DNA of 64,000 bases, taken from contig CACWQS010000002.1 in assembly GCA_902763155.1 (NCBI GenBank), positions 137,566 through 201,565 on the forward strand, read 5' to 3'. The first letter of the stretch is position 1. Each line of letters opens with the position of its first letter. The position numbers and the translations under genes were made by a program. Source of the DNA: an uncultured Pseudomonadota bacterium (lineage in GTDB: Bacteria; Pseudomonadota; Alphaproteobacteria; RF32; CAG-239). The notes beneath the pieces are model-generated. The model had not been told where the DNA came from. It saw only the letters and a list, made by a program, of their open reading frames with translations, and made no database searches. Positions 11,216 to 54,431 of this stretch are shown in pieces.

Positions 11216-11360
11216 ATTTGCTCCTAAAAAACATAAATTATTCACATAAGACAAGGTTGAATATATCACATTTTTCGACCTAAATCCAGAGGAAAAATGC
11301 AAAAAAAAATAAAATATTTTTTGCTTGCATTTTAATTCTGCCGTTTTAATATAATCATTG

Positions 11361-11517
11361 TCGGCAGGTGTTCTGCCGATGGAGTATCCTAACTCCTTAA
11401 GAGAAAAAATCTCCGTCTAAGGGGAGCCGGCGAAATATATTGAATACGCCGGACTGCTCTCTTACAGTTAGGAACTCCCCTTGCTTTGCATTAAAGCAAG
11501 GTTTTTGTTTAACTTAA
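11361..11517 (+). ncRNA. candidate structured small RNA / cis-regulatory leader
   Basis: Sigma70-like promoter: -35 TTGCAT, -10 TATAAT at 11350-11355. Small hairpin CGGCAG-GTGTT-CTGCCG. A long-range stem pairs GGAGTATCCTAACTCCTTAAGAGA (11381-11404) with TCTCTTACAGTTAGGAACTCC (11458-11478) and encloses two internal hairpins. Ends in terminator hairpin CCTTGC...GCAAGG + TTTTT (11479-11516). Confidence 0.3.
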
Positions 11518-11536
11518 CAAAAGAGGAGTTCTGAAA

Positions 11537-11767
11537 ATGATAAATAATACAATAACATTTGATGAAAATACTATGCATGAAATCGGCAAAGGATTGTGGC
11601 TGGCACGCCAGGAAAAGCATTTGTTTATATATCAGGTAGCAAAACGCTCTCGTGTGCCGATAGATTTAATTGACACAATGGAATTGGGGAAAGCTATAGA
11701 AGACAATGCTCTGATTAAATTACTTAAATTTTACGGCAAAAAAATACGGATTGTAATTGAGGATTGA
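11537..11767 (+). CDS. small XRE-family HTH protein
   Basis: 76 aa. HTH segment LARQEKHLFIYQVAKRSRVPIDLIDTMELGK. RBS GAGGAG. Confidence 0.55.
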   Translation: MINNTITFDENTMHEIGKGLWLARQEKHLFIYQVAKRSRVPIDLIDTMELGKAIEDNALIKLLKFYGKKIRIVIED

Positions 11768-12041
11768 TTTTACTTATAATATTTATACTATTATTTAATA
11801 AGAAAATAATTGATAGCTATGAGCCATAGATGTTATAAAAATCATAGAGTGTATTTCTGTATTTGAAATGCACTCTATTTTTTTCACGTCATACTGACAC
11901 TGAATGACAATGAAGTGGAAGTATCCAGTAATGCCTATAGCATTACATCGTTTCAATGAAACTTTTAATTAAATTTTGTATTAACCACCGAAAACCGTGC
12001 GCTAAACCGTGCGGTTTTCGCATTTTAAAAGGAAAAATAAA

Positions 12042-12533
12042 ATGAGTAATTTATATAAATTCAATCAAGACACGCAAATTGATGAATTTGGTGTCGACCA
12101 TTCCAATTTCTCGCTACGAGATGAAATTGAGTATAACACTATGCGGGCTAATCAATCTATGCCCAAACAGCAAAATCCGGTAAGACAAATTGTTGGCGCA
12201 GTTGCGGATATGACGCGAAATTATTTCGATATGAAACGTGATAACACTGTTGGTGCCGATGACTATTTTCATTGTAAAGCCAATTATGAAGCCGCAAATC
12301 ATGGACCATGGGGCGAATTAACAGCACAAATTGTTGGTGATACTAAAGAAGGATTTGACTATTTAAAAAATAGGTTTTACAAAGGATTTAGCTATCCGGA
12401 TGCTTTATCTGATTATTTGCACGACAAAGATGTTAATCTACAAGGGCGACAATTATCAAAGAATCCGTTGTACTCTAACTCAATAGAAGCTTGTCAATAT
12501 CAACGAGTAAAAGATATAAATGAGAAATATTAA
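12042..12533 (+). CDS. serum amyloid A (SAA)-like domain protein
   Basis: Core VADMTRNYFDMKRDNTVGADDYFHCKANYEAANHGPWGELTAQIVGDTKE aligns by eye to the vertebrate SAA core [54 protein letters not shown]. The C-terminus ends ...EKY, as vertebrate SAA does. No signal peptide. Start chosen at MSNLYK (RBS AAGGAAAA). Confidence 0.6.
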   Translation: MSNLYKFNQDTQIDEFGVDHSNFSLRDEIEYNTMRANQSMPKQQNPVRQIVGAVADMTRNYFDMKRDNTVGADDYFHCKANYEAANHGPWGELTAQIVGDTKEGFDYLKNRFYKGFSYPDALSDYLHDKDVNLQGRQLSKNPLYSNSIEACQYQRVKDINEKY

Positions 12534-12801
12534 AAACTTTATGATAACGCTATTCGTTTTTTACCTTAAGGTATGCACGTTTATCGGTTTTATGTTGGTA
12601 ACACTATGCCTTATCGGCGGTATTTATTTGTTTGTTACAGATTCTGATCTTCTGGCTGTAGATTCATGTTTAGATGCCGGAAAAGTCTGGGATTATGAAC
12701 AAAAAATCTGCCGCGATGACTGCTTGACGTGGAATGAAAAAATCGGTTGCGTGCCGATAACAAAAGAAAATATCGAAAAGAAAGCCAAAGGATTATTGTA
12801 A
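12520..12801 (+). CDS. small membrane protein with C-terminal DSCLDxG Cys-rich tail
   Basis: 93 aa, two TM helices, then DSCLDAGKVWDYEQKICRDDCLTWNEKIGC. Overlaps the SAA-like gene by 14 nt. Paralog of 51801..52211. Confidence 0.5.
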   Translation: MRNIKNFMITLFVFYLKVCTFIGFMLVTLCLIGGIYLFVTDSDLLAVDSCLDAGKVWDYEQKICRDDCLTWNEKIGCVPITKENIEKKAKGLL

Positions 12802-12808
12802 ACGGAAA

Positions 12809-12839
12809 GGGCAAGAGCGAAAAACTCTTGCCTTTTTTT
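12809..12839 (+). terminator. rho-independent terminator
   Basis: GGCAAGAG-CGAAAAA-CTCTTGCC followed by TTTTTTT. Confidence 0.7.
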
Positions 12840-12886
12840 ATGTAATTTGTTACATAATATTCAGATAAAAAATAGGGCTTAGAAAT

Positions 12887-51460: not shown

Positions 51461-51799
51461 ATGTTTCTGCGCAAAATTGCAAATCTATTCAAAAAATTTT
51501 TACATTTCGCTACCGATTATGCCGTTATTACGGAAGACAGAAAATCCCAAGCAAAAAAGCGCGGCAAAGCAAGAGACAACAAATACGCACCGTTTCGCAA
51601 ATATTTTAAAAATTTGCAACAACAAAAATTTATAGAATTTAAAAATGCAGGACTTGTATTAAAAGCAAGCGAATTCTTGTATTGGTTTTTAGAAAATAAA
51701 ACAGAAGAAATCGTAATACCATATAAAAAAAGTAATCAATATTATAAATTGATAGGGTTAGCTCAAGAAAATAACAGAGAGTTTAAAAAGTACCTATAG
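51461..51799 (+). CDS. basic hypothetical protein
   Basis: 112 aa, K/R-rich. Its stop abuts the start of the next gene. Weak RBS. Confidence 0.3.
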   Translation: MFLRKIANLFKKFLHFATDYAVITEDRKSQAKKRGKARDNKYAPFRKYFKNLQQQKFIEFKNAGLVLKASEFLYWFLENKTEEIVIPYKKSNQYYKLIGLAQENNREFKKYL

Positions 51800-51800
51800 A

Positions 51801-52211
51801 ATGCAAGAGGCACTTACCTCGCTTCGCAGTATATTTTATTTGACGTGTTTTGATGTATTTTTTGTTTATGCTTTTTTATTAAAGAAAATGAAAGAACAAC
51901 AGAAGATATCTTATTTATTTTCCAGCAAACATATAAAATTACTTGAAGTCGTTATCAGTAATTTGTTTTATTACTTATGTTGGGTTATAATAGGATTTTA
52001 TTTTATAAGTATGAGTATAAATATAATTTCTTTGTATTTTGACCCTTACGATATGGATAGTTGCTTGGATACGGGTATTTGTAGAGAAGGTATTACTTTT
52101 GACAATTGCGAAGACGGTCTACCATGTACCATAACCAAAGAAAGTTGTATAGAAAATAGCAATATATGGCTTGAGGATATCCGTAGTTGTGACATTAGGC
52201 ACAACATTTAA
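51801..52211 (+). CDS. small membrane protein with C-terminal DSCLDxG Cys-rich tail (paralog of 12520..12801)
   Basis: TM helices, then MDSCLDTGICREGITFDNCEDGLPCTITKESCIEN. Compare VDSCLDAGKVWDYEQKICRDDCLTWNEKIGC at 12.7 kb. Confidence 0.45.
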   Translation: MQEALTSLRSIFYLTCFDVFFVYAFLLKKMKEQQKISYLFSSKHIKLLEVVISNLFYYLCWVIIGFYFISMSINIISLYFDPYDMDSCLDTGICREGITFDNCEDGLPCTITKESCIENSNIWLEDIRSCDIRHNI

Positions 52212-52444
52212 AATATCAATATTTGGGAATTTTTACTTGCGTATTAGGTAATTATTCGGTAACTATCCGGTAAATATTCGGAAATAAAACGCAAAAAACT
52301 TGCGCTTAGGGCTTTGCTAAGCAAGGAATTGCCGAAGAAAACTACCCGCAGTATGGCACAAATTTTTGGGGTGGTTCGCCGGAAAATAACTACGGTTTCG
52401 GCACTTCAAACATAAGCGGCAATATTGAAAATGTTACAAACCAG

Positions 52445-53155
52445 TTGAATAATGATGGATTTGGTGGCGGAGTAAGCAACGGTTTCGGTAGCGGAGCGAG
52501 TAATAGCGGTTTTGGTAACGCACCAACCAACAGCTACGGAAATAATCTCAACAATAATCAAACCAATAACGGATATAATTATACAACTGATATTCAAAAA
52601 CAGCAGTGTATTGATTCGTCTGGAATGCAATGCACACCGCAAAATAACAATAATTCTGCCAATATGACATCTAGGTATCCGGATTATTCACAACCGGCAT
52701 CTTTGGAATTTGACGGGCAGAATTTGGTTTGGTTGCAAAATGGTCAACCGGTAAAGTATTATCCGGCAGTATCAGGAAGAGCAGATTATCAAAGTGCTCA
52801 ATACACAAATGAAAGGAAAAGGGGTCCTATTCCTGAAGGAGATTATTTGTTAGGTCAAGGGACCGGAGAAGATTATAACAATAAAGAAGAAATGTCTTGG
52901 TGGAGAAAATTTGTACCATGGAATGATAATCCTTGGTATGAAAATCCTGCGGCATGGGGGAAATCTCGTATTCCTATTCAACCGCTCCCTACCACGAATA
53001 CATTCGGCCGGCATAGTATGTATGTCCATGGTGGGAATGTTCCCGGTTCGGCAGGTTGCATAGATTTAACTTATGCTAATGATGATTTCTATAATGATTT
53101 TAAAAATTATAATGGAACTTTACCTCTCAAAGTCAAGTACAAAAAAGGTTGGTAA
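52445..53155 (+). CDS. L,D-transpeptidase-fold (YkuD/Tlde1-like) domain protein with a Gly/Asn-rich N-terminus. Likely a toxin cassette, and the 5' end may be truncated
   Basis: The C-terminal domain carries YYPAVSGRADY...GPIPEGDYLLG...GRHSMYVHGGNVPGSAGCIDL, a His/Cys catalytic pair in LD-transpeptidase-like spacing. The only in-frame start is TTG at 52445. The frame stays open and is still G/N-rich (NYPQYGTNFWGGSPENNYGFGTSNISGN) back to a stop at 52307, with no ATG. Confidence 0.5.
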   Translation: MNNDGFGGGVSNGFGSGASNSGFGNAPTNSYGNNLNNNQTNNGYNYTTDIQKQQCIDSSGMQCTPQNNNNSANMTSRYPDYSQPASLEFDGQNLVWLQNGQPVKYYPAVSGRADYQSAQYTNERKRGPIPEGDYLLGQGTGEDYNNKEEMSWWRKFVPWNDNPWYENPAAWGKSRIPIQPLPTTNTFGRHSMYVHGGNVPGSAGCIDLTYANDDFYNDFKNYNGTLPLKVKYKKGW

Positions 53156-53162
53156 TTTTAAG

Positions 53163-53193
53163 GAAGGCAGGGAAAAATTCCTTGCCTTTTTTA
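53163..53193 (+). terminator. terminator-like hairpin after the toxin-domain ORF
   Basis: AAGGCAGG-GAAAAATT-CCTTGCCTT followed by TTTTTT. Confidence 0.45.
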
Positions 53194-53244
53194 TTATTTA
53201 TTTTATATATTGAATCACAATACATTATTAGCAGAAGGTGTGAA

Positions 53245-53580
53245 ATGTTTACAAAATTTAAAAAATATATGAAGGTTATTGCATATATTATCTTTACTTT
53301 GGTTGAACTCTTTTATATTAGAATAATCTTTGCACTTTATAATGCTATTCAAATCACCAGAGATGGTGGCTTTGTTAAATCCATTGATGAGAATAATCCC
53401 GTTTGGTATTATCAGTCTGAAGATAATATGATTTTACATGATAAAGTATTAATTGGTGGCTTTTTGTTATTTTTGATATTACCATTTATTTTTATCCGTA
53501 AACCGCAATGGGCTATATTATTGCAAGTCTTTTGGCTGGTGTTGGCTATTATCGAAGGATACTATATAAAATCATTATGA
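53245..53580 (+). CDS. small 3-TM membrane protein (candidate immunity/accessory)
   Basis: MFTKFKKYMKVIAYIIFTLVELFYI.... RBS AGGTG. 111 aa. Confidence 0.45.
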   Translation: MFTKFKKYMKVIAYIIFTLVELFYIRIIFALYNAIQITRDGGFVKSIDENNPVWYYQSEDNMILHDKVLIGGFLLFLILPFIFIRKPQWAILLQVFWLVLAIIEGYYIKSL

Positions 53581-53606
53581 CAAAACAGCCTTTTAGGAGC
53601 AATCAA

Positions 53607-53933
53607 ATGAAAATCACCTTTCAAAAAATTAAGAATGTAGGTAAATACTTTATTTTTGGTCTTTTATACATCTTTGGAATACTCAACTTATATTTCTTTT
53701 GGTTAAGAGCATGGCGCGTAAAGGATGTTATGAATTATACTGATGCAAATTATAAAGGATATCTTGATATCATTGAAATGTACGTTGGTTATATAAGCGG
53801 ATGGTCTATTTTATTTATAATATCATTTGTGTATTCGCTTATTTATATTAAAAATAAATCCTTATATGCATTCATGTGGCTATTTTTACCCGTAATTTAT
53901 TTGTTAACTTTAGCATATCATGAATATTTATAG
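53607..53933 (+). CDS. small 3-TM membrane protein (candidate immunity/accessory)
   Basis: MKITFQKIKNVGKYFIFGLLYIFGI.... RBS AGGAG. 108 aa. Confidence 0.45.
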   Translation: MKITFQKIKNVGKYFIFGLLYIFGILNLYFFWLRAWRVKDVMNYTDANYKGYLDIIEMYVGYISGWSILFIISFVYSLIYIKNKSLYAFMWLFLPVIYLLTLAYHEYL

Positions 53934-53972
53934 GAAGATTTCTTGGCAGTAAATATCCGAAGGAGGATTGCG

Positions 53973-54185
53973 ATGAACTCATACGACGATATATTAAAAA
54001 GAATTGGTAAATATATAGGATATACTATACTCTTTATTCTTTCTTTGATTATAATAGGTGTAGTTGCAGGTATTACTTGGTACGCACTAACCGAACATAG
54101 CTATAAAGATTGTGATAATCAATTTATCAATGGTTGTATGTCAGCAGGGTTAAGTGAAGAAGTCTGTAAAGGCAGAGTTTATTAA
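53973..54185 (+). CDS. small 1-TM membrane protein with YKDC...C tail
   Basis: RBS GGAGG. TM helix, then HSYKDCDNQFINGCMSAGLSEEVCKG. Paralog of the next gene. Confidence 0.45.
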   Translation: MNSYDDILKRIGKYIGYTILFILSLIIIGVVAGITWYALTEHSYKDCDNQFINGCMSAGLSEEVCKGRVY

Positions 54186-54203
54186 GCTGTGAGGATTTAT
54201 TGG

Positions 54204-54431
54204 ATGACAGAAGAACACCAAATATGCGTAAAGCAAATATTAGATAAAGCAGTTAGCGGTATTTATAAAATTGCACTTTATTGTATCGTATTTGTTTTAA
54301 TCTGTGTTATAGCTTTCTTTTTCTTATATCCGCATTATCAGGAATATGCATACAAAAAAGATTGCTTGCAAAACGGGCACCAAAAAGAATGGTGCGAGAA
54401 GACGTGGCAGGAATTATTAGAGTTGGATTAA
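54204..54431 (+). CDS. small 1-TM membrane protein with YKKDC...C tail
   Basis: TM helix, then YAYKKDCLQNGHQKEWCEKTW. Paralogous to 53973..54185. Confidence 0.4.
   Translation: MTEEHQICVKQILDKAVSGIYKIALYCIVFVLICVIAFFFLYPHYQEYAYKKDCLQNGHQKEWCEKTWQELLELD

What the first reader, a model, noticed from the sequence alone, without database searches (positions are those of the whole stretch)
11303..12845. Bacterial serum amyloid A (SAA)-like protein, translationally overlapped by a DSCLDxG-tail membrane protein, behind an HTH gene and an RNA-like leader
The 12042..12533 product carries a core that aligns position-by-position with the vertebrate SAA core (…GADDYFHCKANYEAANHGPWGELTAQIVGDTKE… vs …[33 protein letters not shown]…) and even ends in EKY, as SAA does. 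SAA domains are essentially a metazoan acute-phase family, so a bacterial copy, which here has no signal peptide and a 60-aa N-terminal extension, is unusual. It fits the eukaryote-like gene content of this window. Its stop overlaps by 14 nt the start of a 93-aa two-TM protein whose tail (VDSCLDAGKVWDYEQKICRDDCLTWNEKIGC) is paralogous to the tail of 51801..52211 in the toxin-like cassette. This links the two loci into one repeated module (cargo protein + Cys-tail membrane partner).
Basis: partly seen in the sequence, partly recalled or inferred. Interest (0 to 1): 0.8.

Follow-up and report, generated by a model that had tools for sequence, protein, structure and literature searches.

The report
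Bacterial SAA-fold toxin with immunity partner
A gut alphaproteobacterium encodes a small protein with the serum-amyloid-A fold that is most likely an antibacterial toxin, paired with a membrane-anchored four-cysteine immunity protein; the pair is a kind described in 2025, but it carries an apparently undescribed N-terminal module that is shared with many other toxins.

Summary
ORF 12042..12533 (163 aa) is a true SAA-domain protein: Pfam PF00277 E 1.9e-17, and the AlphaFold model matches human SAA1 and mouse SAA3 (TM 0.81-0.84). Its stop overlaps by 14 nt a 93-aa membrane ORF with a four-cysteine tail.

The "eukaryote-like, host-derived" reading is not supported. Bacterial SAA ("prok-SAA", Lipocone superfamily) and its partner ("TM+Imm-SAA": one helix, four strands, four invariant Cys) were described computationally as a polymorphic toxin and immunity pair (Burroughs, Nicastro and Aravind, eLife 2025). 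Both window proteins fit those descriptions.

The first ~37 residues look new. This module has no Pfam, PHROGs or NCBIfam match. It travels with a conserved promoter-like box and a 5' hairpin. It is restricted to gut and rumen Alphaproteobacteria MAGs, often in several copies per genome. There it heads proteins with many different C-terminal domains:
- SAA and a second Lipocone type
- Tlde1/YkuD
- GH108 and lysozyme-like domains
- a Gly-rich domain

Of 66 complete proteins, 55 are followed by small envelope proteins. The delivery route is unresolved.

The second locus (51461..54431) is a decayed array, not a second intact cargo-and-partner pair. The upstream leader is a real structured RNA of unknown family.

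The parts
11330..11512 (+). Structured RNA leader upstream of the small HTH-like ORF. It has a 5' hairpin, a multibranch domain and an intrinsic terminator at 11479-11501 followed by a T-run. A conserved GAACUCC...GGAGUUC pairing could sequester the downstream RBS. It is peripheral to the toxin pair.
   Evidence: Fold z -6.2. Terminator scan. No Rfam family at gathering score; the best match is RF03532 at 25.8 bits against 100. Two further copies exist (L009 10905-11095; L089 905-1075), with 5 pairs kept through compensatory changes.
11537..11767 (+). 76-aa ORF, possibly an Xre-type HTH regulator. It is followed by its own terminator at 11844-11878. It is not a conserved part of the cassette.
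   Evidence: HTH_25 E 0.1, below cut-off. Terminator. No homolog upstream of other SAA loci except a weak 36-aa match in L009. No PHROGs or NCBIfam hit.
11974..12041 (+). Constant 5' control region of the short-N-module cassette. It holds an extended -10-like TGTATTAAC (11977-11985), a 5' hairpin GAAAACCGTGCG / loop / CGTGCGGTTTTC (11989-12020, 12-13 bp including two G.U pairs), and an AAAAGGA ribosome-binding site.
   Evidence: Conserved at DNA level upstream of effectors with different toxin domains (L009, L011, L012, L016, L018-L021, L003-L008). The arms vary in ways that keep the pairs: L018, L012/L020/L021 and L009. Fold.
12042..12152 (+). N-terminal module (residues 1-37, MSNLYKFNQDTQIDEFGVDHSNFSLRDEIEYNTMRA). 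It is the constant head of a lineage-specific polymorphic effector family and a candidate trafficking or export determinant.
   Evidence: Shared at 60-90% identity with proteins carrying other C-terminal domains. 178 confirmed stretches in species-representative genomes; all but a few of the 79 loci kept are labelled Alphaproteobacteria or proteobacterium, and nearly all come from gut, rumen or faecal samples. Always at the N-terminus. DNA similarity to non-SAA loci stops at 12136-12150. No Pfam, PHROGs or NCBIfam match.
12153..12176 (+). Short polar linker (NQSMPKQQ). This is the recombination junction between the constant head and the toxin cassette.
   Evidence: Similarity to long-N-module SAA loci begins only at 12206-12217. 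L010 carries an in-frame stop in this linker. Many ORFs hold the N-module alone.
12177..12533 (+). SAA / prok-SAA (Lipocone) toxin domain, residues 46-163: helices H1-H4 plus a short H5. The predicted catalytic positions are His77, Glu103 and Asp128, and the sNxxGR motif is VNLQGR (131-136). Cys78 and Cys151 are invariant.
   Evidence: Pfam. PDB sequence profile. AF2 and Foldseek. Conservation. Family definition (PMC12419801).
12520..12801 (+). Immunity protein of the TM+Imm-SAA type. It has an N-terminal TM anchor and a periplasm-facing domain of about 45 aa: CLDxGK(V/I)(W/Y)Dx.QKICRDDCLTWxxxxGCVPIT, with Cys50, 64, 68 and 77 invariant. It is probably translationally coupled to the toxin through the 14-nt overlap.
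   Evidence: 69 homologs with all four Cys invariant. AF2 pLDDT 88.4: TM helix, one helix, four strands, C-terminal helix. It follows the SAA toxin in every complete canonical locus. It matches the published description.
12804..12838 (+). Intrinsic terminator that closes the toxin-immunity operon.
   Evidence: 14-bp stem followed by a T-run.
51461..51799 (+). C-terminal part of the 'F1' protein. The full protein is about 150 aa, has no TM segment and no family match. It sits directly upstream of long-N-module effectors in at least 15 loci. Its role is unknown (regulator or adaptor).
   Evidence: 47-62% identity to F1 members, over F1 residues 53-151 only. No Pfam, PHROGs or NCBIfam match.
51801..52211 (+). 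Orphan, 5'-truncated immunity-type gene. It equals residues 129-257 (66% identity) of a 260-aa, 6-TM, Cys-rich protein that follows a divergent SAA-like toxin in L024.
   Evidence: Weak profile similarity of its DSCLDTG tail to Imm-SAA (72% probability, E 3.5e-5).
52313..53155 (+). 5'-truncated effector. It keeps the second half of the long N-module (KQGIAEENYPQYGTNFWGGSPENNYGFGTSNI), a Gly/Asn-rich linker and a Tlde1/YkuD L,D-transpeptidase-like domain. The core N-module is missing and stop codons lie upstream.
   Evidence: YkuD 32.6 bits (cut-off 23.4) and Tlde1_dom 27.7 bits, below its 30.1 cut-off. tblastn and translation. 54-61% identity to complete N-module Tlde1 effectors.
53149..54431 (+). 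Four small TM ORFs (53149..53580, 53508..53933, 53943..54185, 54189..54431). They are candidate immunity genes. The last is a member of family F5, and the third resembles F19 by eye. Both families follow effectors elsewhere.

Best explanation
12042..12801 is a two-gene toxin-immunity operon of a polymorphic effector family. The family is specific to uncultured gut and rumen Alphaproteobacteria.

The 163-aa product has three parts:
- a constant N-terminal module of about 37 aa
- a short polar linker
- a prok-SAA (Lipocone) toxin domain

The toxin domain keeps the His/Glu/Asp pocket and the sNxxGR motif. It is inferred to be an enzyme that cuts the phosphate-linked head group off a lipid carrier or membrane lipid, such as undecaprenyl-pyrophosphate-linked wall precursors. 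It would do this on the outer face of the inner membrane of a rival cell.

The 93-aa product is translationally coupled to the toxin. It is anchored in the producer's inner membrane by one N-in/C-out helix. It displays a small four-cysteine domain, probably held by disulfides, in the periplasm. There it would neutralise incoming or escaping toxin.

The promoter-like box, the 5' hairpin and the N-module form the constant end of the cassette. The toxin and its immunity gene form the exchangeable end.

Shown here:
- homology and fold of both proteins
- conservation of the catalytic positions
- the modular DNA structure
- the variety of C-terminal domains behind the same head
- the regular presence of a downstream envelope protein

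Inferred, not shown:
- toxicity and the substrate
- neutralisation by the partner
- a trafficking role for the N-module; the export route is unknown
For: SAA homology and fold.

Conserved catalytic positions. His77, Asp124, Asn132, Cys78 and Cys151 are invariant. Glu103, Asp106, Asp128, Gly135 and Arg136 are nearly invariant. They map onto the Lipocone H2-His, H3-Glu and H4-Asp positions and the sNxxGR motif (PMC12419801).

The partner fits the published Imm-SAA type. It has one TM helix, then one helix and four strands, with four invariant Cys. It follows the toxin in all seven complete canonical SAA loci found here. Six SAA/partner pairs from the two protein searches have matching longest-contig lengths.

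Polymorphic architecture:
- The same N-module heads SAA, a second Lipocone type (profile comparison 90.8% probability, E 1.2e-6), Tlde1/YkuD, GH108 with PG_binding_3, lysozyme-like, Gly-rich and unknown domains.
- DNA similarity breaks sharply at 12136-12150 and resumes at 12206-12217.
- 55 of 66 complete effectors have a small TM or signal-bearing protein next to them.
- Arrays, orphan immunity genes, truncated toxins and N-module stubs are common.
- Several loci occur per genome.

Invariant Cys residues in both toxin and partner, and basic residues before the TM helix, point to action outside the cytoplasm (inference from sequence).
Against: - No experiment exists for any prok-SAA toxin or Imm-SAA protein. 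The published assignment is itself computational.
- No known secretion marker or apparatus was found. None appears in the protein, in the 64-kb window, or in about 1.1 Mb of flanks of related loci.
- The Imm-SAA domain is unusually conserved across toxin subtypes. This is not what a fast toxin-immunity arms race predicts.
- The protein is very small for a delivered toxin.
- The N-module could instead serve regulation, folding or autoinhibition.
Confidence: 0.75

Rival explanations
1. The delivery route is a type VI secretion system. On this reading the N-module is a cargo-effector marker, comparable to the MIX, FIX or RIX motifs. The scattered toxin-immunity pairs would be orphan T6SS effector loci.
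For: The proteins are small and lack a signal peptide. They carry periplasm-acting domains, including Tlde1, which is the name-giving T6SS effector domain. TM or periplasmic immunity proteins lie next to them, and there are several loci per genome. The Lipocone paper lists T6SS among prok-SAA delivery systems.
Against: No PAAR, VgrG, Hcp, Rhs or adaptor gene stood out near any of 79 loci or in the window. This rests on neighbour-family clustering and Pfam scans of only some neighbours. Whether these genomes have a T6SS at all could not be tested.
Confidence: 0.25
2. It is a colicin- or pesticin-like soluble bacteriocin. Toxin would be released by lysis, for example on prophage induction. The N-module and the disordered linker would act as the import (translocation or receptor) region on related target cells.
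For: The toxin types parallel colicin M (lipid II cleavage) and pesticin (muramidase). This comparison rests on my own knowledge of those proteins. Many family members have long Q/N/G/S-rich linkers with aromatic residues, as in colicin translocation domains (window 52313-52700). The immunity protein is membrane-anchored and faces the periplasm. There is no secretion signal. Some copies sit in prophages.
Against: The 163-aa protein has almost no linker and no receptor-binding domain. No lysis gene lies next to it. No convincing TonB or Tol box was identified.
Confidence: 0.2
3. It has a phage-linked function. The N-module would attach the protein to a virion or phage-derived particle, by analogy with MuF toxins. 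Alternatively the proteins would be phage wall-breaching or lysis factors, with the partner giving superinfection protection.
For: In one prophage type an N-module gene with a variable C-terminus sits in the same slot: right after a virion structural protein (phrog_6121 in L006/L007 and L022; assigned by position and family F16 in L010 and L088). A TM ORF follows it in L006, L022 and L088 (L006, L007, L022, L088; second copy in L010). Many of the C-terminal domains degrade peptidoglycan.
Against: Only 1 contig among 2.9 million IMG/VR contigs carries the module, against 178 stretches in genomes. Phage structural genes lie in the flanks of only 6 of 79 loci. The window locus has no phage genes. 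There is no PHROGs or BFVD match.
Confidence: 0.12
4. The gene is a eukaryote-like SAA acquired from an animal host and used for host mimicry or lipid or retinol binding. The membrane ORF is an unrelated partner.
For: The organism lives in animal guts. The window also encodes an ankyrin-repeat protein. Vertebrate SAA binds retinol (6py0).
Against: Identity to vertebrate SAA is only 26-30%. The bacterial family is large, diverse and modular, and has dedicated partners. The published phylogenetic inference is a bacteria-to-metazoa transfer. There is no signal peptide for release toward the host.
Confidence: 0.03

Closest known systems
prok-SAA family of the Lipocone superfamily, with its TM+Imm-SAA immunity protein (Burroughs, Nicastro and Aravind, eLife 2025, PMC12419801)
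   Same: It has the SAA fold with a short fifth helix, the conserved His/Glu/Asp positions and the sNxxGR motif. It is a soluble domain used as a C-terminal toxin tip. The downstream partner has a TM anchor and a domain of one helix and four strands with four invariant cysteines.
   Different: The published delivery contexts are T6SS, RHS, MuF and a peptidoglycan-binding-domain fusion. Here the head is a 37-aa module that is not in that list. It has its own conserved promoter-like box and 5' hairpin, and it is confined to gut Alphaproteobacteria.
Vertebrate serum amyloid A (human SAA1, PDB 4ip8; mouse SAA3, 4q5g and 6py0)
   Same: Same four-helix cone, TM 0.81-0.84. The GxDxYFHxxxNYxAAxRG and NxxGR motifs are shared, and so is the C-terminal EKY.
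   Different: The bacterial protein has no signal peptide. It has an N-terminal module and two invariant cysteines. It is encoded with an immunity gene and is part of a recombining toxin family. Identity is 26-30%.
TelC / TipC of Streptococcus intermedius (T7SS lipid II phosphatase toxin and its immunity lipoprotein)
   Same: According to PMC12419801 TelC is the only experimentally studied Lipocone toxin. It acts only outside the cytoplasm and cleaves lipid II. Its immunity protein acts at the outer face of the membrane. It is the template for the mechanism proposed here.
   Different: It belongs to a different Lipocone clade. It has an LXG/T7SS head and comes from a Gram-positive host. Its immunity fold is unrelated. 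The relationship was not tested here beyond the literature.
Tlde1-type L,D-transpeptidase effectors (Pfam PF10908 with PF03734)
   Same: The same catalytic domain appears behind the same N-module in sister proteins (P0091, P0103, P0104; L013-L015). It also appears in the window's second locus.
   Different: Known Tlde1 proteins are T6SS cargo. Here no T6SS link was found, and the window copy has lost the core of its N-module.
MuF polymorphic toxins of temperate phages (Jamet et al. 2017, PMC5576092)
   Same: A constant N-terminal part and variable toxin tips, with immunity genes downstream. Some copies sit in prophage structural regions.
   Different: No MuF domain is present. The constant part is only about 37-110 aa. 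Most copies are chromosomal and lie away from phage genes.

Membership tests
SAA domain (Pfam PF00277) / prok-SAA Lipocone | Sequence match to the SAA profile above the curated cut-off | tested here: met
   64 bits against 30.8, E 1.9e-17, profile positions 5-102 of 102. Family profile against PDB SAA sequences, E 1e-18.
SAA domain (Pfam PF00277) / prok-SAA Lipocone | Four-helix cone with a short fifth helix | tested here: met
   AF2 helices 46-66, 74-85, 89-113, 118-138 and 147-150, pLDDT 89.9. Foldseek TM 0.81-0.84 to 4ip8, 6py0 and 4q5g; nothing else is significant.
SAA domain (Pfam PF00277) / prok-SAA Lipocone | Conserved pocket residues (H2 His, H3 Glu, H4 Asp) and the sNxxGR motif | tested here: met
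   His77 is invariant. Glu103 and Asp128 are nearly invariant. Asn132, Gly135 and Arg136 are conserved (VNLQGR). Definition in PMC12419801. The mapping was done by alignment and motif, not by superposition on a known active site.
SAA domain (Pfam PF00277) / prok-SAA Lipocone | Cleavage or transfer of lipid head groups | not testable with these tools
   Needs biochemistry. No prok-SAA or metazoan SAA has been shown to be an enzyme (PMC12419801).
Imm-SAA immunity protein (TM+Imm-SAA) | Membrane anchor followed by one helix and a run of four strands | tested here: met
   AF2 pLDDT 88.4: H2-40, H42-52, E56-58, E63-65, E68-72, E76-79.
Imm-SAA immunity protein (TM+Imm-SAA) | Four absolutely conserved cysteines | tested here: met
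   Cys50, Cys64, Cys68 and Cys77 are invariant in 45 aligned homologs.
Imm-SAA immunity protein (TM+Imm-SAA) | Encoded directly downstream of a prok-SAA toxin | tested here: met
   Window, L001, L009, L011, L017, L052 and L060. Published network: Prok-SAA lies upstream in 75 cases. Sequence identity with the published Imm-SAA set could not be checked because those sequences are not held.
Imm-SAA immunity protein (TM+Imm-SAA) | Neutralises the cognate toxin | not testable with these tools
   Needs co-expression or binding assays.
Polymorphic toxin system | Constant N-terminal region joined to variable C-terminal toxin domains by recombination | tested here: met
   At least six domain classes sit behind one head. 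Sharp DNA similarity boundaries at 12136-12150 and 12206-12217.
Polymorphic toxin system | Cognate immunity gene next to each toxin; orphan cassettes and arrays | tested here: met
   55 of 66 effectors have a neighbouring envelope protein. Arrays occur in L060, L062, L069 and L076. The window holds an orphan immunity gene and a truncated toxin.
Polymorphic toxin system | N-terminal domain that identifies a known secretion route (PAAR, VgrG, RHS, LXG/WXG, MuF, TPS, signal peptide) | tested here: not met
   There is no Pfam, PHROGs or NCBIfam match to the N-module. There is no signal peptide. The module is not among the published partners.
Metazoan acute-phase SAA (Met-SAA) acquired by transfer from a host | Secretory signal peptide, and close nesting within animal sequences | tested here: not met
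   The N-terminus is hydrophilic. Identity to vertebrate SAA is 26-30%, against 48-99% to bacterial homologs covering at least 70% of the query. No formal tree was built.
T6SS cargo effector | Genetic linkage to T6SS core or spike genes, or to adaptors | tested here: inconclusive
   None was recognised among recurrent neighbour families or sampled large neighbours. Whole genomes could not be searched.
Broken-hairpin trafficking domain (PMC12419801) | Short C-terminal beta-hairpin domain on toxins that lack immunity genes | tested here: not met
   The module here is N-terminal and immunity genes are present. The published figure and sequences could not be compared.

The most novel reading that the evidence does not exclude
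The 37-aa N-module would define a previously unrecognised delivery route for antibacterial toxins in gut Alphaproteobacteria. The candidates are a new secretion or loading signal, possibly phage-derived, or a minimal bacteriocin import domain. The module comes with its long variant, its conserved promoter-like box and 5' hairpin, and the recurrent upstream 'F1' gene. The window's 163-aa SAA toxin and 93-aa immunity pair would then be the smallest natural system in which the proposed enzymatic activity of the SAA fold could be tested.
Probability: 0.35. Interest if true: 0.7.

Novelty: new variant of a known kind. Interest (0 to 1): 0.45.

Why it matters
What serum amyloid A does biochemically is still open. 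A 2025 computational study proposed that the SAA fold is an enzyme acting on lipid head groups, and that animal SAA descends from bacterial toxins. No prok-SAA toxin has been tested.

This locus offers a very compact natural pair: a 163-aa toxin with intact predicted catalytic residues and a 93-aa immunity protein. That would make the proposal directly testable.

The N-terminal module is also of interest. It heads at least six kinds of envelope-targeting domains in an uncultured gut lineage and has no recognisable secretion signal. It therefore points to a toxin-delivery mode that has not been characterised. Such a mode would bear on strain competition in human and ruminant gut communities.

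The central claim of the finding, that a bacterial SAA is surprising, is already explained by the literature.

Tried and rejected
- **Host-derived SAA:** rejected on family size, modularity, low identity to vertebrate SAA and the literature.
- **A clean toxin-subtype to immunity-subtype correlation:** I looked for one, comparing the two alternative C-terminal halves of the SAA domain with VWDY or IYDP immunity variants. Thirteen pairs showed none, and the immunity domain is simply very conserved.
- **BFVD fold search of the toxin model:** nothing found. The afdb50 library was unavailable.
- **Third homology search, with the N-module profile:** it returned only short ORFs of 35-91 aa, so it gave no architectures. 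phmmer against 1.84 billion representatives gave only 42 clusters.
- **Pfam, PHROGs and NCBIfam on the N-module, F1, the HTH ORF and several effectors:** no hits beyond GH108, PG_binding_3, YkuD and Tlde1.
- **Search for secretion machinery among neighbours:** the large neighbours sampled looked like housekeeping genes (judged from their N-termini only), and the window ORFs scanned gave housekeeping Pfam hits.
- **Literature search for secretion systems in RF32-type gut Alphaproteobacteria:** no papers found.
- **Rfam on the leader:** nothing significant.
- **The metagenome scan for the leader:** it found one extra copy, on a contig of 1.7x coverage. That contig may be chimeric, so its N-module-less arrangement is treated with caution.
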